Assembly: GCA_976551045.1 (NCBI GenBank)
Contig: CDPCPM010000021.1
Coordinates: 2,976,001 to 3,040,000 of the forward strand
Origin: Glaucostegus cemiculus
Lineage: Eukaryota
DNA: 64,000 bases
Direction of reading: 5' to 3'
Part shown: piece by piece, positions 2,496 through 55,215 of the stretch
Position numbering within the stretch: position 1 is the first letter of the stretch
How the letters are laid out: each line of letters opens with the position of its first letter
Made by a program: the position numbers and the translations under genes
Notes under the pieces: model-generated
What the model was told of the DNA's origin: nothing
Databases searched by the model: none
What the model saw: the letters and a program-made list of their open reading frames with translations, nothing else

Positions 2496-2622
2496 GAACA
2501 ACTAATACTGAATTGGGCAACTAAATTATAGGAACATGTAGCGCATACAGCAAAGGAACATTGCATCAAAGAAAATGCAGAGTATTAACTTCAAGCCTTA
2601 AAATATTATTTGTACTATTTAC

Positions 2623-3582
2623 CTTCAGAACAGTTCAATCCAATGTATGGTCTGAAACATTCACATCTGTAGTTGGTCAACAAATCAATACATTGACCCC
2701 TGCTCTGGCACGGGTCCCTCTGGCACCAGCCAGTCTTGCTGCACCCTGGTTTCACATTCAGCGCTGAATCAACCAAAAGAGTGTCCACGTCTATTACTTC
2801 TGACTCCACTGTCACGTCCTGAAGGCAACCGATAAAATGAGGCCAGGTCTGGGGCTGGGTACCACCTGGAAAATTTCCATAGTCATCCTCTATGCCCCCA
2901 AAGAATATGTTTTCAAATGCAGATGCAAGTTGGCCACTCTCCATCCCTACAAACTTCAGGATCGTGCATTCTCCTGAACAAGAATCGTCCAGGAGTTTGA
3001 CAGAAAAGTGACTCCTGAATGTCACTTCCACAGTGTGCCAGTCTCCGTCACTTACATTCTTAAAAATCTCAAGAGCGGCAACCAGTTCATTGCTTATTTG
3101 CAGAGATGCAGATAAATGCCCATTGTGTATTTCCAGTTTCATAAATGTTTCTCTGTTCCCTCTATGGAAAATAAGTGCATTGGACAGCAGAGTTCTACAC
3201 CTTAGGAATATGTGATAAGGAAGTTTATTTGTCGAGTCCTCATTTTTCTTAGTAAGTGATGTTTTAAAATGAAGATAGCCACTGATAGCAAAAGAAAATG
3301 TAGTTGATAGTTGACAGTTCAAACCAATGTAGCCATTAGCACAGCGGCAATGGTGCCTGTGTTGTGAATCTATCAGGTAAGGGATGCATGTTGCTTTGTT
3401 CTGGCATTCATGGTTCTCACATCCAGTCAGAATGTCTGTACAGTTCTGGCCTCCATAAAATATCCCCTGCGCATTGCCTGTTGGGCAGTGACAAACGTAA
3501 CCCTGCAGGGTATTCTGGCATGTTCCTCCATTTTGACAAGGGCTTGAGTCACACTCGTTAATATCCATCTCACAGTGCGAAC
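2623..3582 (-). CDS. CRB1: CRB1 exon 6 (two EGFs, laminin-G domain 1, EGF)
   Basis: Inside ORF 2615-3691. Acceptor tttcttttcaag|GT, donor GAAG|GTAAAT, 960 nt, phase 1-1. Motifs FYGGQNC, SDGDWHTVEV, AFENIFFGG, FIGCLQD and LNVKPGC…PCQSRGQC match CRB1 better than CRB2. Human exon recalled as 957 nt. Confidence 0.95.
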
Positions 3583-4765
3583 CTTGAAAAGAAAGAAAAT
3601 AAATTTTTGTTCTACTAATAGGTAATACGTTAAAAATTTTGTACATTGTGGATATAGTCTGAAGTTTATTGAATTTTTCAGTGACTATCATAAATTACTT
3701 CATTTTTCTCATGAAGCTATTATAGAGTTATATTGTACAGAATGAAAACACTGCAGTTGCTGGAAATCTGAAACAGAAATAGAAAATGCTGGAAACGGAC
3801 AACATGACTCCATTTCTCTTTTCATAGAAGCTGTCTGAACTGTTGAGTGTTTCTAGCACTGTCTTTAAATGGCTTCCCAATCCCCGCCCATGCTATCTCA
3901 GAGATTGTCTCTTCACATCACCTCTCATTTCTTTGCCAACCAGTTTAAATTTGTGCTATTAGCAAACGTTTAGTCTTTTTGTAGTTATTTATCTAGTCAG
4001 GAGTTCTGTCCTAACAACAGATGACACATAGTAATATTTTATATACTGTACATTGGTACCAACTTAATAGGACAGGATAGCCAATAGAATTGTGTTACTT
4101 TTTAAATTACAACGTTCTGTGTGCTGTTTATTATACATTTGTTCCACAGAGCAATGTACAAAATAAGTAAATAGCACTAATTTAAATATGAAATAACTTT
4201 GGGAAAATCAGTTCATAAATACTTAATTGTTTTATAACCCTCTATATTAAAGTGACAGCTGCTCTGTGGATTATGGAGATTAATCTATTATTGGTTAATG
4301 TGCGGAACACAAAAATCTCAGTGACTCTTAATTATGGAATTGCAGCTTAACATGCCTATTTTGGAGAAAAAAGATCAACCAAACTCAAGCAAATTATTGT
4401 CAGTTCAGTAAAACCATAAAGTCATTCCACATTAATTACATTTGAAAAATGCAAAAAGCTAGTTACACTTTTCAAAACATAAACCACGGTAACGATTATA
4501 ATGCTGGTTCCTCTGGATTGGTGCAACACCAATAAAAAAATCTTTGAATTTGAGTTAAGTCTAAATGATGCCCTGATCCTTCACCACACAATATTGACAT
4601 TTAATGACTGCAATGAAGTCAATAGAAGTATATTTGAAAAAACAGCAATTACACAGTGTTTATACATAGTATCATCACCTACTTTTTCCTCCTCCTGAGT
4701 ATTCATGTAACATCAATCTCCACTCTTATGCTCTTACAAAAGAATATTTTTTGAAAAAGATTTAC

Positions 4766-4814
4766 CTGCGACAACCATCATAAAAATGGAAGCCTTAAGA
4801 ACTGATAATACCAT
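4766..4814 (-). CDS. CRB1: Putative alternative first coding exon (CRB1-B / exon 5c-like), signal peptide MVLSVLKASIFMMVVA(G)
   Basis: ggagcaATGG start, 16 mostly hydrophobic codons, then G|GTAAAT donor. 49 nt phase 1, in frame with exon 6. Intron-5 position matches the mammalian CRB1-B first exon. Confidence 0.7.
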
Positions 4815-5660
4815 TGCTCCAAGAGAGATTTAAAAGGATCTGCAGCCAAATTTTTTAAAAACGAAGAAAATCTTCAACAATCCTTTAGTCTTGTGTCAGC
4901 TCAACCCCTGCTGATTGTAGTTCATTTCTCATTGTTAACTTATATCCTAATTGTACGCATTGTTCCTTTGTCTGCCATACCTGCTGACTCAGCTCATTGC
5001 TCAATGTTCTGAAAGCCAGATCAGCAAGGTTAAGCTTAAGAATTAGTCAATTCCTTGCTTACCCAACGGTCTGTCTCTGTGACCCATTTGTGCTACTCCC
5101 CACAACTATAACTAGAGTCACTGAAAAGAATATAAATAAATATTGGATTATAACTGTGGAAGAAAAACAATGTTGGAGCTAGTTCAAAATGTCACTTCTC
5201 TAGCAGTGCATTTTATCTTAAAGGCTATTTATTATTATAATCAGATTAAGTGATGTAATAGATTTTGTTGTATTATTACTTTCATTAAGTTATACATTGG
5301 TTTTAGCTGTTTTCAGTGGATTCATGTGTTCACATTGGTGCCAACCTGATGCTTTTATTTAAACTTTAAAAATGATAGTAACATGACTGCAAATACTGTG
5401 AACCATTACAAAGTTCTTTTGTGTGCTATTTTAATCCCATCACTTAAATAAGTTGGTTAACAAGTGTACAACACAGCAAAAAAGAGACAAAGGCAAAAAA
5501 CTATTCTGTCTCTAAAAGCCTCTGTTACAGATTTAAACAAGCTAAACTCTGACTTTTTAATCAGTTAAAGAAGAAATAGCCTCACTTTTCTCCACAATTT
5601 TTGATTGTTTTTAAAATCAGGAATAAAATGGCACAAAATCTACATTAATTTAGATTAAAA
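4815..5660 (-). promoter_or_regulatory. Putative photoreceptor internal promoter (Maf/NRL element plus CRX/OTX2 sites)
   Basis: TGCTGACTCAGCT at 4982-4994 (12/13 match to T-MARE), TAATCAGATTA at 5238-5248 (perfect K50 homeodomain dimer), GGATTA 5145-5150, TAATCC 5432-5437, TAATCA 5558-5563. TATA-like GATATAAG on the minus strand at 4939-4946. Confidence 0.6.
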
Positions 5661-5734
5661 TGTAGCAAGGTAAGGTTGTGCCAAATTTGGCAATGCTATT
5701 CTATCTAAGTAATTAGGTTCCAACAGTGCCTTTT

Positions 5735-7630: not shown

Positions 7631-7813
7631 CTGTAAATCCATGCCGACATTTACAGATGTAGCCAGAAGCATGCTCATAGCTGAAGACTACAGGCAATTC
7701 TGTAGTGTTTCCATACATGTTTTGCCAGGAGAGTTCAACACATTCCCCCCCATGTAGACAAGGATTACTGTAGCACTCATTGATATCAGTCTCACACTGT
7801 GCCCCCATAAAAC
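7631..7813 (-). CDS. CRB1: CRB1 exon 5 (EGF with Crumbs-type insert: [60 protein letters not shown])
   Basis: Inside ORF 7593-7850. Acceptor tttatccag|GT, donor ACAG|GTAACT, 183 nt, phase 1-1. The long loop in the EGF (ELS…FSY..ASGY) is typical of Crumbs proteins. Confidence 0.95.
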
Positions 7814-9753: not shown

Positions 9754-9893
9754 CTGGCCAACAATGACAAGTGTAATTTCCAGCAATATCCTGGCAGGTG
9801 GCACTATTGAGGCAGGGATGTGAAAGACAACTTGGGACGTAGACGTCACAGTGCAAACCAGTGTATCCACTGTTCACACAGTCACAGTTATAC
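9754..9893 (-). CDS. CRB1: CRB1 exon 4 ([46 protein letters not shown])
   Basis: Hand translation. Acceptor ttattgcag|G, donor CCAG|GTTTGT, 140 nt, phase 2-1. Same size as recalled human exon 4. Confidence 0.95.
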
Positions 9894-13016: not shown

Positions 13017-13241
<225 letters not shown>

Positions 13242-18858: not shown

Positions 18859-19443
18859 CTGTCAAACCGGGTGGGCAGATGCAGACATACTTATCAATTT
18901 TGTTCACACAGGTGGATTCATTTCTGCAGGGTTCCGAAGCACACTCATCCACTTCAATCTCGCAGAGTCTGCCCTGGTAGCCAGGCACACAGAAGCAGGA
19001 AAATCCATTGAGCTTATCCTTGCACACAGCACCATTTTCACATGGGTTTGATGCACACTCATTCCTGTTGGTTCCGCAGTCAGTGCCAGTGTAACCTAAA
19101 GGGCAGACACAGCTATAGCCAGTGGCATTGTCCAGGCAGGTGGCACCGTTCAAGCAGGGAATGCTGGCACACTTGTTGATGTAAATTTCACAGCTGGTGC
19201 CAGCATGACCAGGAGGGCAATCACAAGAGAAGTCAGCTGTGCCCAAAGTGCTCTTGCATGTTGTGTTGTGCTGGCAGGGATGCGATTCGCAAACATCAAG
19301 CAGTTCCTCACAGTTCTTCCCCATGAAAGCCACAGGTATTTTTGGACAGTGGCAAATATAGTCATCGATAAGGTCCTCGCAGGTTGCATTGTTTTTGCAA
19401 GGGTTGGAGAAGCACTTGTTAAGAATTGCAGCAAAACATGAAC
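18859..19443 (-). CDS. CRB1: CRB1 exon 2 (EGF repeats, SCFAAILNKCFSNPC…YVCICPPGLT)
   Basis: Inside ORF 18701-19552. Acceptor ttcacttcttcag|GT, donor ACAG|GTAAAA, 585 nt, phase 1-1. Five EGF/cbEGF repeats. Human exon 2 recalled as 582 nt. Confidence 0.95.
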
Positions 19444-22925: not shown

Positions 22926-25654
22926 TTTGAGGGTGAATAGCAGTGTTTTTAAAATCTCCTGGCTCCCTATGGTTGTGGGGCTGCCAGCATGTTCTGAGCT
23001 GTAATCTGAAATTGGCAAGTGCCTATTATAATGAGTTGACCTTACACTAGAGTCCAGGTCAGAAGCAAGCATCACAGTCATGCAAAATGCTCTAAAAGCA
23101 ACAGTACTGGCAGGGTTGAAGCAGTACCATTATCTGCTCCTGGTCATTTTCGTGTATATTAATCAGCATTCTCTGTGAATAATCTGCAAATAAACGATGA
23201 GTAGTCCAACAAAATCATTGAAGAGAGTTTTACGATTGCATTCAATTTGTAGAAATTACTTAATTTGAAATTTGTGCATGTAGATGAAAAAATATCAGGG
23301 CCAGAGATCAGAAAATTAGAGATTATATATCAAACACAAGTTGGGTATAAACCCTTTATAAAGGGATAATTGAAGTGTTACTATAAATGTTTTAAATAAA
23401 CTTTAAACATTTTTAGTTCACCAAGCACCTTCAGTAAAAACTGTCTTACATTCCAATTTAAAAGAAAATTGCAATCCAGTCTGTGGAAAAAATGTTTAAT
23501 ATCCATTTTTACTATGCTGATGAAATGGGAAAAAAATGAATGTGCAATGAGAACTGAAGGTTGGAGGGGCACTCTGCACTTAAACTTGAGTTGGTGATTG
23601 AAATTTCTTTTGAAATGCAAAAATAATGAGCTGGACTGGTGCCAGGTCACAGCAAGGCCAGTGTGAAGTGACTGTGCCTGCATAGAGTCGTGCTAGGAGA
23701 TTTAGCATGCATGCTCTTCATACTCTGGCGATGCACACATTTCAGCTTTCTTCAGCTGCACTCACAGCTCAAAATCTAATGCAATACTCTTGTGCTATTT
23801 CACATCATCAATGCGGCAGTTTTACTTGCAGGTTCACAATCAAATTGCCATATTTCTTATTCTGAATTTGATTAATCCTCTTAGTGTATTAACACAGGGG
23901 TAAAAAAAAATCCTTTTTGCTTTTCAGGCAAGGTTTTTTTTCCACATGGATTTTTTCATGTTAAATTACATAAAACTAATCTGACATGTCAGATAATCCA
24001 GAAGGAAAAAACAATTAAATGGTAGATCTGCGACTTTGTCAAATTATTCTTGACAAAAATCGAGCATGAGGATATCATTAGTGGACACTCAAATCATTTT
24101 TTGATGACGGGTTTATTTGTTGGCTTTCCTTGAAAACCAGGAGCATGACAACAGCTGTAACTGTCCATCCATTGACATAACTTTGGAAAGAAATCCTAAT
24201 TATTTGAGGACAGCCAAGCAGGGTGGGGGTAATTTTTAAAATGAGGATTAAAAATGAATCCAAATTGATGCTGTGTCCAGGAAATCTACTAGATGTCCAA
24301 AATAGGATTTTGTACCAAGCTAAAGTTATCTTTCACAGACTGAAAATTAATTCAATGCAGTGGGCACAAAGTACCTTAGATGATCTCACAAAACTTAATT
24401 AATACTACAAATTAATCTGATGAAAAGCATCTTCAGCTTTGTACCGATACCAAATTGACTCTTAACTAAAGGTTTGTGTCCATTCAACAAGGAATCTCCT
24501 ACCTGTTTGTTCAGAGTTAACAACTGTAAGAAATAACTAAAGCTTATTTGACTAAACCATGTCTTTCTATCTATTCCTTTGATTGATTATGCACATTGAA
24601 ATATTTAATTAAAACACATGCAAACATATATTAATAATGTTAAGTTTTACAATTATGTATTTGCTTGCTTTCAGTAAATGCCTAATTAGATCAATTTAGC
24701 ACTTTAGAATCTGAAAACAAGTAGGGTGATACTTTGCAGGATGATGCCTCTGGATGGATTAAAGATTGCCAAAGATGCCTTGCCCAGTTAGCCTAGAAAT
24801 CATATGGTTAGTGTTCTACCTGATAAGAGTTCAGGAGAGGGGTCCCATGGCTCACCCGTGGAGTCAACAGTCTGAGAAACTAATAAACACGCACAGGTGA
24901 TGGAAAGCTTAAAATGGAAGTTAAGGGAAGGGAAGTTCCAATGTCATTAATGTATTTTTCTTTGTGTCTCTGATTGTTTTTAATGTGACCAGCACCTTGA
25001 TCTGTGAAGTACAGTATTTCATTCCCATGCATGCTCAATTTGTATATGGAATTGACAATAAATTGATTGGTTGAGAATTTAAGGCTAGCATTAAAACTAG
25101 GAGCAAAAATAGAAGATGTCGGAAAAATTCAGCAAGTCAGGGAGCATCTGTGGAAAGAGAAACCTTTAACATTTTGGATCTGCAACCCCTCATCAGAACT
25201 GGGAAAGAGAGATGAAGGTAGATTTTCATTGGGAGAGCAAAGCGTAAAACAAAAGGAGTGTCTGTAATAGGATCAGTCAAAATGGCTTAATGGGGACAGA
25301 TACCAGCATATTAAGCTGCTATTTTCTGTGTAATAAGTTGGTAATAGGAAGGTGGTGGGATTTTGTTTCAGATTTCCAGCATCTGCAGTTTGATTTTCAT
25401 CTAAACCAGGAGTCTGCATTGTATTTATGTTCCCTCCGCAACTGATCAGCTAAGAAGGTGGATGCAGGCAGTTAATTTAATGATTAACACCAGGGTTTAC
25501 CACTCCTTAAATGGAAACGACAACCAAGTTTCAAAGAATGAAGAAAAAAAATGGAAGATGACAGACAAATCATCCTTCGGGTACAACCACTGAGGCAGTC
25601 CAAAAGCATTACATGACTGCTGAACCTTCTGCTAAGTGCCAGGAATATACACGC

Positions 25655-36766: not shown

Positions 36767-38190
36767 TAGAATCAGAATCAGTTTTATTGTCACAACCATA
36801 TACATACATGGTACGCATAGGAGCGAGATACCGTCCTCCACAGGAACACGTCTCATAAAAAAGAATAACATAACAACCAACAGAGAGACACATACACACT
36901 TGGCAGAATACACAGTACAAAACATTACCCATTAGTTCTTACATAAATAGATCTTAAAGTGAACGGGCTGGTGTCGGGCATTTAAAGTGCTGGTGCATTT
37001 CTGTGCACCTAGCATCTCCTAGTGTTAACAAAGGAAGATGGAGGGATGAGAGAGTTTGCAGTTCTTATGGCTTGCGGAAAGAAGCTATTGTTCAGCCTGG
37101 ACGTTCTTGCCCTGATACATTTAAGCCTCCTCCCTGATGGCAAAATTGTGAAGAGGTGGTGGGAGGGGTGAGAGGGGTCGGCCATTATGCTTTTGGTCTT
37201 CCTCACACAACGGTCTTTGTATATGTCTGCGAGGGATGGAAGCGAGACACCTATGATCCACTCCGCAGCCTTAACTATCTTCTGGAGGGACTTCCGCCCA
37301 GCAGCTGAGCAGCTTCCAAACCAAACAGGGATACATTGAGTTAGGATGCTCTCAATGGTCCCCCTGTAGAAGGATTTCATGACTGAGGGGTGTGGGTACG
37401 CTTTCCTCAGTCTCCGCAGGAAGTAGAGGCGTTTCTGAGCCTTCTTCGTGAGGGCCGTAATGTTAGTGGACCAGGTCAGGTCGTCGGTGATGTGCACCCC
37501 CAGGAACTTGGTGCTGCGTACTTGTTCCACAGCAGACCCGTTGATGGTCAGCGGAGCGTGCACATGATGACCCCTCCTAAAATCCACTATCATCTCCTTG
37601 GTTTTATCCACATTCAAGGAGAGGTTGTTGTCATGGCACCACACGGCTAGTTGGTTCACCTCCTCTCTATAGTCCGACTCATCGTCATTCGTAACAAGAC
37701 CCACCACTGTCGTGTCATCGGCAAATTTAACAATGCGGTTGGAGCTGAATCTGGCCTCACAGTCGTGGGTCAACAAGGTGAACAGGAGCGGACTGAGCAC
37801 ACAACCCTGAGGGGAGCCAGTGCTCAGTGTGATGGTGCTTGAGGTGTTTTCACCAATTTTGACTGACTGCGGCCTGCCAGTTAGAAAATCCAGTATCCAG
37901 TTGCAGAGAGGAGTGTTGATGCCCAGAGCGCTCAACTTCCTGATAAGCTGTTGTGGGATGATGGTATTGAAAGCGGAGCTGAAGTCAATGAATAGCAGCC
38001 GGCAGTATGAGTCCTTCTTCTCTAAGTGATGTAGTGCAGAGTGCATGGCAGAGGAGACTGCATCATCGGTGGACCTGTTTGCCCGATAAGCATACTGATG
38101 AGGATCCAAGGATGGGGGGAGGGAGGCTCTAATGTGCTTCACAACTAGCCTCTCAAAGCATTTCATAACAATCGGTGTTAGGGCTATAGC
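36767..38190 (-). mobile_element. Rex1/Babar LINE, young, 5'-truncated, RT frame intact
   Basis: Uninterrupted ORF 37009-38211 ([41 protein letters not shown]); 3' tail caataaaactgattctgattct. Confidence 0.93.
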
Positions 38191-38419
38191 TCCCTTGTCA
38201 GTTTTGAACATTAATTTAGGGATTAATGTTCAACCTCCAGGGTAAGAGTGTAGGTAACGCAAAAGGAAAATCAATAGATGGTTTCTTGGGGGGAGTGTAG
38301 AGGGTAGACAGGCACTTATGTGGCAGTTGACATTAATTCAAGGTGGTATATTGCCTTCCTCGTGTCAGGGTCAAGGATGTCACTATGGATCATCTTGAAG
38401 AGTTGAAGTACCAGAAGCT

Positions 38420-53505: not shown

Positions 53506-55215
53506 TAATGCCCTAAATGGGTACACCTTGAGTATCAAACAACACTTGAATTTTCGTTATTCTCTATTTTAGGAGCTTCACTCCCTTTTGCACTTACCAA
53601 ATTAAGTAAATATATGACTAACCCAATCAATAAGCATACATTACGAATATGGTTTCAATTTTGTAAATTCTTTGGATTGACTAAATTTGTTTTGTCAAGT
53701 CCTATACAATCTAATTTTTTTTCAACCATCTAGACTAGATACAGCTTTTTCCTTATGGAAAAGGAAGGGAATAGTATGCTTTCATGATCTATTCATTGGT
53801 AACTGTTTAGCATCTCCACGGCTGTTCCTCAAATTTCCTCTGTCGCCTGCCGGTGAGGTGAAGAGGCTTCCCTCGAGATCCAGCTGTCACCCCGGGCACA
53901 GTCAGAGGAAACTCGAGCCGTTTCTTCATCTGTTGCCTCACTGGGTTGAATTGTTGGAACACCCTTCCCAGCTGTGCGGTTGGAAACCTGTTCAGGAGCC
54001 CGAAGACCCCGCGGTCCAGCTTTTGAACAGCTAATAAATATAATTTACCTAGATCACATTTTTTTCGATATTTGCAGATTAGAAATTTTTTAAAAGCTGT
54101 TATACCCTCCTTTCCATTTATTATAAAGACGAAATCATTGATAAAATTTTAGGTTTTAATCCCCATCAGAAGGGCTCGACAGCAATAATTTATGATTTAA
54201 TTATGAAAATACGGTCAGATTCACTGGACAAAATTAAAAATGATTGGGAAAGTGAACTCCAGATTTCTATATCTATAGAGACTTGGAAGAAAATTCTTCA
54301 TTCAGATAATACATCCTCAATGTGTGACAGACACTCATTGATACAGTTTAAAGTTGTGCACAGGGCCTATATGTCCAAAGATAAGCTAGCTCGTTTTTAT
54401 GACCGTATAAAACCTATATGTGACAGATGTAAATCGAACGTGGCTTCTTTGTCGCATATGTTCTGGTCCCGTCCTTATTTGGAAAAATATTGGAAAGACA
54501 TTTTTAATATTATTTCAGATGTATTGAAGATCGATTTACAACCTCACCCTATTACTGCAATTTTTGGATTACCATGGATAAAGTCTGGCCATTTACCTGC
54601 TTCTGCTAACCGTATGATTGCTTTTGTTACATTAGTGGCCAAACGAAAACAAACCATTCTGCTTAAATGGAAGGATCCAATACCCCCTACCACCTTTCAA
54701 TGGTTCTCTCAAACTTTATCATGTCTTAATTTGGAAAAAATTAGGAGCGGTACTGTTGATTCTTTGCTTAAATTTGAAGCTATTTGGAGTCCATTTATTC
54801 AATACTTTCATATGATGTAGTTTCCCCTTCTATAACTTTTTTTTAAATTCAGAGAAAGGGAGCTGACAACATCATATTGTTCTATTTCTATTGAAAATTT
54901 TACCCCAGTTTTTTTTTCCATGTTTTTTTTAAAATTCATTTTTGGTTTAATTTACTCTATATTATTATGATTTTTTAAATTGATTTGGTTTTTTTTTTCT
55001 AATTATATAACAAATCTTTTTCTTTTCTATCTTTTACATTACACTTATGAACCGAGAGATTGTTGGAACTTTCTTTTATATATGTCATACTTTATTGCTT
55101 TTTTTATGATTACCTACGATTGTTACTTGATATTTCTATAATACATGTGTAAACATTGTTGTTATATATCTTAACCTGTATTGATTTGTTATCAATAAAA
55201 GATTGAAAAAGAAAA
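53506..55215 (+). mobile_element. L1/Tx1-type LINE, 5'-truncated, with poly(A) and 15-bp TSD
   Basis: ORF2 C-terminus (WESEL…IQFKVVHR…CDRCK…SHMFWS zinc knuckle), T-rich 3' UTR, AATAAA at ~55194, A tail, TSD AAAAATTACAAAATA at 53491-53505 and 55216-55230. Confidence 0.9.

What the first reader, a model, noticed from the sequence alone, without database searches (positions are those of the whole stretch)
4939..5660. Rod-type cis-regulatory code (NRL/Maf + CRX dimer) directly upstream of the alternative exon
Seen: TGCTGACTCAGCT (4982-4994) about 170 bp upstream of the ATG, perfect palindrome TAATCAGATTA (5238-5248), more TAATCC/TAATCA monomers and a TATA-like box, in non-repetitive DNA. Known: CRX/OTX2 bind TAATCC and TAATCNGATTA, and NRL binds MARE and synergises with CRX on rod genes. 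Inference: a rod-biased internal promoter, which independently supports the alternative exon and bears on how old Maf-dependent rod regulation is.
Basis: partly seen in the sequence, partly recalled or inferred. Interest (0 to 1): 0.72.

Follow-up and report, generated by a model that had tools for sequence, protein, structure and literature searches.

The report
Ray CRB1-B photoreceptor promoter, not rod-specific
This stretch of a ray's CRB1 gene looks like the internal promoter of the photoreceptor form CRB1-B, until now described in bony vertebrates; its eye-type binding sites are real, but the matching mouse and zebrafish genes are active in cones too, so it is weak evidence for an ancient rod-only switch.

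Summary
The two main motifs are real and rare. A 12/13 Maf element (4982-4994) and an exact K50 homeodomain dimer site (5238-5248) are each the only one in 64 kb; 0 of 20,000 shuffles held both. The TATA-like box is at chance level and the monomers are only modestly enriched.

The locus is intron 5 of a batoid CRB1 gene (minus strand). The downstream mini-exon (4814-4766) fits the first exon of CRB1-B by position, phase, length and hydrophobicity; no RNA evidence was obtained.

The mouse counterpart is a promoter-marked, CRX-, NRL- and MEF2D-bound element with a degenerate Maf core 184 nt before the ATG (ray: 180 nt; counted by eye, suggestive).

'Rod-type' is not supported. The mouse promoter is open in rods and cones, Crb1 keeps about 76% of its level without Nrl, and zebrafish crb1 is cone-biased. 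The dimer motif is a photoreceptor-class mark. Two preprints find no NRL in cartilaginous fishes, so MafB is the likely binder.

Verdict: probable pan-photoreceptor CRB1-B promoter with a Maf input; a new member of a known kind that would extend CRB1-B to cartilaginous fishes.

The parts
4982..4994 (.). Maf-recognition element (T-MARE, 12 of 13), also an exact ARE-type core and an AP-1-type core
   Evidence: consensus TGCTGANTCAGCA quoted in PMC5335693; ARE label recalled
5238..5248 (.). K50 homeodomain dimer site TAATCAGATTA (P3 spacing), 424 nt above the ATG; candidate Crx/Otx5 or Otx2 site
   Evidence: consensus in PMC6169884
   Evidence: TAAG variants enriched in photoreceptor chromatin
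5145..5150 (-). TAATCC monomer
5432..5437 (+). TAATCC monomer
5558..5563 (+). TAATCA low-affinity monomer
5652..5657 (-). TAATCT low-affinity monomer
4939..4944 (-). TATA-like TATAAG; chance level, probably inside the 5' leader if the start zone is as in mouse
4815..5070 (-). inferred 5' leader and start zone of the CRB1-B-type transcript (upper limit by analogy with mouse; not mapped)
   Evidence: inference
4766..4814 (-). coding part of the candidate CRB1-B first exon: 16 codons plus 1 base, strong Kozak context, phase-1 donor CAG|GTAAAT, hydrophobic leader
2623..3582 (-). CRB1 exon 6 (960 nt, EGF-LamG-EGF), acceptor for the alternative exon 1183 nt upstream
7631..7813 (-). CRB1 exon 5 (183 nt), upper boundary of the host intron
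9754..9893 (-). CRB1 exon 4 (140 nt)
13018..13213 (-). CRB1 exon 3 (196 nt)
18859..19443 (-). CRB1 exon 2 (585 nt)

Best explanation
The region is the internal promoter and 5' leader of the photoreceptor isoform CRB1-B in a ray (batoid). Shown in the sequence: host gene, host intron, a B-type mini-exon and the two rare motifs. Inferred: Crx/Otx5 (or Otx2) binds the dimer site and the proximal TAAGC/TAATC sites and opens the promoter in photoreceptors as a class. A large Maf, most likely MafB because NRL appears absent from this lineage, binds the element at 4982-4994 in or next to the start zone and adds a quantitative boost. Transcripts start near or above the Maf element, splice from 4766 to exon 6 and give a short Crumbs protein with its own signal peptide. 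The promoter is probably active in rods and cones; any rod bias is a matter of degree.
For: Gene and intron identity: exon sizes 585/196/140/183/960 (my count), 81% to Hypanus CRB1, batoid CRB1 clade 100/100. Exon: of 616 ATG-to-phase-1-GT mini-exons in the window it ranks 2nd in hydropathy and is 1 of 2 with a donor of at least 8/9; best of 7 in intron 5 on a B-leader profile. Its length matches B leaders of teleosts, sturgeon and macaque. Its last 25 bases match the mouse B exon at 15 positions without gaps (by eye; binomial 0.0005, or 0.003 without the donor AG; length chosen afterwards). B-type membrane segment and tail in 5 of 44 chondrichthyan CRB1 models. Mouse counterpart chr1:139255686-139255850: CRX-, NRL- and MEF2D-bound, ATAC peak in rods and cones, promoter marks, 2.06x basal activity falling to 1.31x when CRX sites are mutated, q 0.002. 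Pan-photoreceptor behaviour of orthologues. MafB candidacy.
Against: No transcript, start site or chromatin data for this species. None of 44 chondrichthyan CRB1 models begins with a B-type leader. Peptide similarity to known B leaders is weak: 0.5 bits and rank 8 of 282 on the profile, against 10 bits or more for the training leaders; global rank 212 of 616 against macaque and 290 of 616 against one teleost group. The visible mouse sequence has no TAAT-N3-ATTA dimer and only a degenerate Maf core (predicted NRL occupancy 0.11), and its CRX sites lie downstream of that core whereas the ray's lie upstream. The ray's much better Maf site could make it more rod-biased than mouse. The dimer is 244 nt from the Maf site, outside the mouse stretch I could see. 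Up to five upstream ATGs would lie in the leader.
Confidence: 0.62

Rival explanations
1. One reading: the same promoter but rod-restricted or strongly rod-biased in this lineage, because a near-perfect Maf element makes it depend on the rod large Maf (MafB in place of NRL) acting with Crx.
For: 12/13 Maf element unique in the window; MAF motifs are enriched in rod-specific open chromatin in mouse; the mouse counterpart is NRL-bound and Crb1 is 1.3-fold higher in rods; mafb rises with rod genes in skate retina.
Against: Mouse promoter open in rods and both cone samples, one of which is Nrl-null; about 76% of Crb1 signal remains without Nrl; zebrafish crb1 17.1 in rods against 30-41 in five cone clusters; NRL site counts did not correlate with reporter activity in one large assay; the embedded TGANTCA core is cone-enriched in mouse.
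Confidence: 0.2
2. It is a photoreceptor promoter driven by the homeodomain sites, but the bZIP element is read by small-Maf/CNC (NRF2, BACH1) or AP-1 dimers as a stress or light-damage input, not by a rod-determining large Maf.
For: The site contains the only exact TGA(C/G)TCAGCA in the window (ARE label recalled) and a TGACTCA core; BACH1 and ATF4 share promoters with NRL in mouse retina and BACH1 represses NRL-driven activity; zebrafish Crb1 loss raises light damage (review passage).
Against: Both arms carry the Maf-type GC extension, which suits a Maf homodimer; the mouse counterpart overlaps an NRL peak.
Confidence: 0.1
3. The motifs are chance matches or part of an ordinary intronic enhancer of the canonical CRB1-A promoter, and the mini-exon is not used in this species.
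For: No RNA evidence; weak peptide similarity; motif set chosen after the fact; TAAT-N3-ATTA sites were repressive in one reporter set.
Against: Both unique motifs fall within 430 nt of an exon candidate located independently by intron, phase, length, donor and hydropathy; B-type tails exist in rays and sharks.
Confidence: 0.08

Closest known systems
Mouse and human CRB1-B promoter and first exon (Ray et al. 2020, PMC7335077; element chr1-139255686-139255850 in Friedman et al. 2021, PMC8492058)
   Same: Same intron, short hydrophobic leader ending in a split Gly codon, homeodomain sites and a Maf-type core at nearly the same distance from the ATG (180 nt here, 184 nt in mouse by eye).
   Different: Cartilaginous fish; near-complete Maf element and an exact K50 dimer instead of a degenerate core with TAAG/TGAT monomers; order of proximal sites reversed; leader peptide barely similar; no expression data.
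CRX + NRL rod elements such as the rhodopsin promoter
   Same: K50 homeodomain sites plus a Maf element upstream of a photoreceptor gene; NRL and CRX act synergistically on the rhodopsin promoter.
   Different: Orthologues of this promoter are not rod-restricted; NRL is reported missing in this lineage; the dimer and Maf sites are 244 nt apart.
Conserved photoreceptor K50 dimer motif PH_13 (bioRxiv 10.1101/2024.11.13.623372)
   Same: Dimeric K50 site, the most enriched conserved photoreceptor motif from lamprey to human.
   Different: That study pooled photoreceptors as a class and had no cartilaginous fish among its six species; the motif does not separate rods from cones.
ARE / CNC-small Maf and AP-1 elements (label recalled)
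   Same: Exact TGA(C/G)TCAGCA core.
   Different: Second Maf-type arm present; photoreceptor homeodomain context.

Membership tests
CRB1-B first exon and promoter | lies in CRB1 intron 5, upstream of exon 6 | tested here: met
   (1183 nt from exon 6)
CRB1-B first exon and promoter | about 16-17 codons plus one base, phase-1 donor, Gly at the junction, hydrophobic leader | tested here: met
CRB1-B first exon and promoter | sequence similarity to known B leaders | tested here: inconclusive
   profile 0.5 bits, rank 8 of 282; donor-anchored summed rank 2-16 of 556 by length used; 15 of 25 bases to mouse by eye
CRB1-B first exon and promoter | spliced to exon 6 and expressed in photoreceptors | not testable with these tools
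   no RNA holder listed; no B-leader protein among 44 chondrichthyan models
CRB1-B first exon and promoter | used together with the B-type last exon | not testable with these tools
   the 3' part of the gene is outside the window; B-type tail in 5 of 44 related models
Rod-specific NRL/CRX element | Maf motif together with K50 homeodomain motifs | tested here: met
Rod-specific NRL/CRX element | orthologous element rod-restricted and NRL-dependent | tested here: not met
   published data read here: mouse; zebrafish (gene-level values)
Rod-specific NRL/CRX element | an NRL gene exists in the lineage | not testable with these tools
   no genome held; two preprints report none in little skate or cartilaginous fishes
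T-MARE (large Maf site) | 13-bp TGCTGANTCAGCA | tested here: met
   12 of 13 at 4982-4994
T-MARE (large Maf site) | bound by a large Maf in vivo | not testable with these tools
   only the mouse counterpart has NRL ChIP overlap
K50 homeodomain P3 dimer site | TAATCNGATTA, 3-bp spacer | tested here: met
   definition
TATA-box core promoter | TATA motif above chance, about 30 nt before the start | tested here: inconclusive
   64% of shuffles hold one; mouse 5' ends map at and above the Maf core, which would put it in the leader

The most novel reading that the evidence does not exclude
The Maf element at the CRB1-B start zone is one homologous site kept since rays and mammals split. It is near-perfect in an NRL-less lineage and has decayed in mouse, so in rays MafB drives a rod-biased CRB1-B. 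This would be a named, directly testable MafB target showing that Maf-plus-Crx wiring of a photoreceptor structural gene predates NRL's role, with rod/cone bias retuned per lineage by the quality of one site.
Probability: 0.18. Interest if true: 0.65.

Novelty: new member of a known kind. Interest (0 to 1): 0.42.

Why it matters
[quoted passage not shown] It is reported in mouse, human, cow, rat and zebrafish. A B-type exon with a photoreceptor promoter in a ray would date the isoform and its promoter to the ancestor of jawed vertebrates. The sites that drive the B promoter were not named in the passages I read: 'CRX' has 0 hits in the main text of both CRB1-B papers. The ray sequence, with cleaner motifs than mouse, points to sites worth mutating and gives a candidate MafB target for a lineage without NRL, where skate retinal electroporation now exists. 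It does not by itself date rod-specific Maf regulation.

Tried and rejected
No RNA holder was listed for 2600-5700, so no reads were laid; this is no evidence either way. No whole genome is held for the window, so genome-wide motif background, NRL presence and the 3' exon could not be checked. A scan of metagenome contigs for exon 6 relatives gave 5 loci from 137 candidate stretches; all were distant EGF-repeat genes with no alignable promoter DNA. Searches for a chondrichthyan protein with a B-type start found none (one cluster showed 15 of 19 members); the one close short hit reads through the exon 6 donor, so it is genomic. The HMMER search of representatives was swamped by EGF repeats and not used further. 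The catshark retina atlas had no crb1 or maf mention in text or in its one held supplement. The Hughes 2017 supplements gave no ATAC row for the mouse coordinates. Earlier scan findings: nothing. I first read the mouse reporter sequence as the plus strand and placed its core 201 nt from the donor; one search showed it is printed in transcript orientation, and all distances here are the corrected ones. Rejected: the TATA-like box as evidence; 'NRL' as the binder; the dimer as a rod mark; exact MEF2 and long ROR-type consensus strings (recalled), which had no match in 4700-5700. For the leader profile I kept 53 leaders and dropped 4 that looked like mis-predicted starts; 51 of the 53 are teleost, which biases it. 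Supplements of the bioRxiv preprints (cis-regulatory code study, skate study, CRB1-B rescue study) were not seen and may bear on Maf motifs in photoreceptors and on crb1 levels in skate.

Full report
WHAT THE LOCUS IS. The window holds part of a CRB1 gene on the minus strand. Five exons were found by translation and splice boundaries: 19443-18859, 13213-13018, 9893-9754, 7813-7631 and 3582-2623 (sizes 585, 196, 140, 183 and 960 nt by my count; that these match human exons 2-6 is recalled). The last encodes EGF and laminin G domains and is 81% identical to Hypanus sabinus CRB1, 78% to Narcine and 68% to the skate Rhinoraja. A tree of 23 exon 6 peptides puts it in the batoid CRB1 clade (100/100), outside the stingray-devil ray trio and unresolved against Narcine and Rhinoraja. 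The finding lies in intron 5.

THE OBSERVATION. The Maf-type element at 4982-4994 matches the 13-bp consensus at 12 positions and is the only such match in 64,000 bases; TAATCAGATTA at 5238-5248 is the only exact K50 dimer site. Expected counts per 64 kb are 0.04-0.21 and 0.06-0.22 over five Markov backgrounds. In 20,000 shuffles of the 722-bp region 0.11% held the first, 0.14% the second and none both. The motifs were picked after the fact, so this overstates the surprise, but the pair remains above chance. The monomers add little: 6 TAATC[C/A/T] sites with the dimer halves (0.9% of shuffles), 4 without (11%), and another tile at 23711 ties it among 87. The TATA-like TATAAG at 4944-4939 is matched by 64% of shuffles. 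The region shares no repeat with the rest of the window.

THE EXON. An ATG at 4814 in strong Kozak context opens 16 codons plus one base before the donor CAG|GTAAAT, in phase with exon 6, 1183 nt further on. This is the layout of the first exon of CRB1-B, the photoreceptor isoform described by Ray et al. 2020. B-type leaders of the same length, ending in Gly at the junction, are present in sturgeon (P0158), macaque (P0313) and many teleost proteins. Among 616 ATG-to-phase-1-GT mini-exons in the window this one is 2nd in hydropathy and 1 of 2 with a donor of at least 8 of 9 consensus positions. It is the best of 7 in intron 5 on a profile of 53 leaders. Against this, similarity is weak: 0.5 bits on that profile (rank 8 of 282), global rank 7 of 616 against sturgeon but 212 against macaque, donor-anchored summed rank 2 to 16 of 556 depending on length. 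By eye its last 25 bases match the mouse exon at 15 positions without gaps (binomial 0.0005, or 0.003 without the terminal AG; length chosen afterwards). None of 44 chondrichthyan CRB1 models starts with a B leader, but 5 of 44 (Mobula, Narcine twice, Mustelus, Amblyraja) carry the B-type membrane segment. No RNA evidence for this species was obtained.

THE MOUSE COUNTERPART. The mouse B first exon ends at chr1:139255551; the eight listed 5' ends lie at 139255760 (twice), 766, 768, 769, 773, 788 and 860. The 310-nt form makes up 72% of Crb1 long reads. The reporter library of Friedman et al. 2021 holds 164 nt of this exon's 5' part. It is labelled as a CRX peak with an ATAC peak in both rods and cones and promoter histone marks, and it overlaps CRX, NRL and MEF2D peaks. 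It is a weak enhancer (2.06x basal), falls to 1.31x when CRX sites are mutated (q 0.002) and has no autonomous activity. Predicted occupancy is 2.26 for CRX and 0.11 for NRL. Counting by eye, a core AGCTGA-C-TC starts 184 nt before the mouse ATG and 236 nt before the donor. The ray element, read on the sense strand as AGCTGA-G-TCAGCA, starts 180 and 229 nt before the same landmarks. Both share the same first-base departure from consensus; the mouse lacks the right arm. The chance of an exact shared 8-mer is about 0.002 within 5 nt and 0.05 anywhere in 310 nt under independent bases, and about twice that at the window's own rate (20 other hits in 64 kb). As plain identity (8 of 13) it is 0.05-0.12. 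This is suggestive, not proof. The mouse CRX sites are TAAG and TGAT variants downstream of the core, whereas the ray's lie upstream, and the place where a dimer would fall is outside the mouse sequence I could see. Since mouse 5' ends surround the core, the ray's TATA-like box may sit in the leader. Five upstream ATGs lie at 4997-4925; the mouse leader also has upstream ATGs (by eye).

IS IT ROD-TYPE? Probably not. Ray et al. report the B promoter open in rods and both cone samples and Crb1-B expressed in rods and cones; one cone sample is Nrl-null photoreceptors. In sorted cells Crb1 counts are 9861, 11220 and 10687 in rods and 8365, 7998 and 7652 in Nrl-null cells, log2 change 0.40, not called differential. 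In zebrafish crb1 averages 17.1 in rods and 30-41 in five cone clusters, log2 change -1.56; a review places Crb1 in cones and not rods, and B exceeds A in zebrafish retina. These are gene-level values, not isoform counts. The dimer is the most enriched conserved motif of photoreceptors as a class from lamprey to human. It acted as a stronger enhancer than monomers in one assay and as a repressor in another. In favour of rod bias: MAF motifs are enriched in rod-specific mouse chromatin, the mouse element overlaps an NRL peak, rods have 1.3-fold more Crb1, and the ray site is far closer to consensus than the mouse site. On the binder: one preprint finds no nrl in little skate and mafb as the highest large Maf; another finds no NRL in cartilaginous fishes, moderate to high MAFB there, and a large Maf in lamprey rod-like cells. 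The site also fits small-Maf/CNC or AP-1 dimers (label recalled), and BACH1 and ATF4 share promoters with NRL in mouse retina.

MECHANISM AND RIVALS. Best (0.62): a pan-photoreceptor CRB1-B promoter opened by Crx/Otx5 through the dimer and proximal sites, with a MafB boost at the start zone. Gene, intron, exon layout and motifs are shown; binding, start site, splicing and cell type are inferred. Rivals: rod-restricted and MafB-dependent in rays (0.20); bZIP site read by stress factors (0.10); chance or intronic enhancer with an unused exon (0.08).

NOVELTY. CRB1-B and its promoter are known. A search for 'CRB1-B' with 'shark' found 0 papers, and none of the 14 papers or the 4 deals with cartilaginous fishes by title or abstract start. 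The library lacks most subscription journals and I did not search 'ray' or 'skate' with CRB1-B. I rate it a new member of a known kind, interest 0.42. The boldest reading not excluded is a single Maf site conserved between ray and mouse that makes ray CRB1-B a rod-biased MafB target (0.18; interest 0.65).

WHAT I SAW OF EACH PAPER. PMC7335077: outline, passages, supplement rows (files 1, 5, 6; file 6 cut when stored, file 3 unreadable). 10.64898/2026.08.05.743134: passages. PMC8492058: passages, the section describing files, supplement rows. PMC5335693: passages, one supplement row. PMC6169884, PMC10979960, PMC13249099, PMC11129452: passages. 10.1101/2024.11.13.623372: passages and the first part of section 7. 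10.1101/2025.07.30.667746: passages. PMC11806052: passages and a supplement search without hits. PMC8405809: passages and one supplement row (2 of 6 occurrences shown). PMC13622825: abstract, outline, passages. All other papers: search listings only. Figures were not visible. Four of these (the CRB1-B rescue, cis-regulatory code, skate and MAF evolution studies) and PMC10979960 were read as preprints.

Noticed in passing
window 4983-4975 and 4850-4840 (minus strand): A donor-like CAG|GTATGG (7 of 9) directly follows the Maf element, and an acceptor-like pyrimidine run ending in CAG lies about 140 nt downstream; such an intron would remove four upstream ATGs. Donors of this quality occur 135 times on the minus strand, so chance is likely.
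   Followed up: partly
window 4850-4815 (minus strand): The 36 bases before the ATG match the mouse leader at 16 positions without gaps, with 7 of 8 at -36 (by eye; binomial 0.018, start chosen afterwards).
   Followed up: partly
window 5246-5255 and 5438-5447: A 10-bp inverted repeat whose two arms each abut a K50 site (by eye); a repeat of this length is not rare by chance in AT-rich DNA.
   Followed up: no
window 4909-4914, 5021-5026, 4895-4900: Further Maf half-sites flank the full element; 3 TGCTGA in the 500 nt above the ATG against a window mean of 0.57.
   Followed up: partly
window 23711-24432: A second tile with six TAATC[C/A/T] sites and a one-mismatch dimer at 24413, upstream of exon 2; possible enhancer or chance.
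   Followed up: no
window 19444-64000: No CRB1 exon 1 was looked for; the stretch is rich in retroelement-like reverse transcriptase fragments (for example 37009-38229 and 54083-54820; label by eye).
   Followed up: no
proteins P0122-P0155, P0148, P0153, P0377, P0378: 20 of 44 chondrichthyan CRB1 models end in a CRB3-like tail, and 118-aa 'crumbs homolog 3-like' proteins are listed on contigs of the same length as CRB1 in two sharks: probably a neighbouring crb3-like gene fused to CRB1 by annotation or read-through.
   Followed up: partly
proteins P0202/P0250, P0208/P0292 and other teleost hits: Teleosts show two distinct sets of B-type leaders within one species; one set is annotated as stand-alone proteins of about 1020 aa ('crumbs homolog 1-like'), possibly a duplicate that keeps only the B form.
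   Followed up: no
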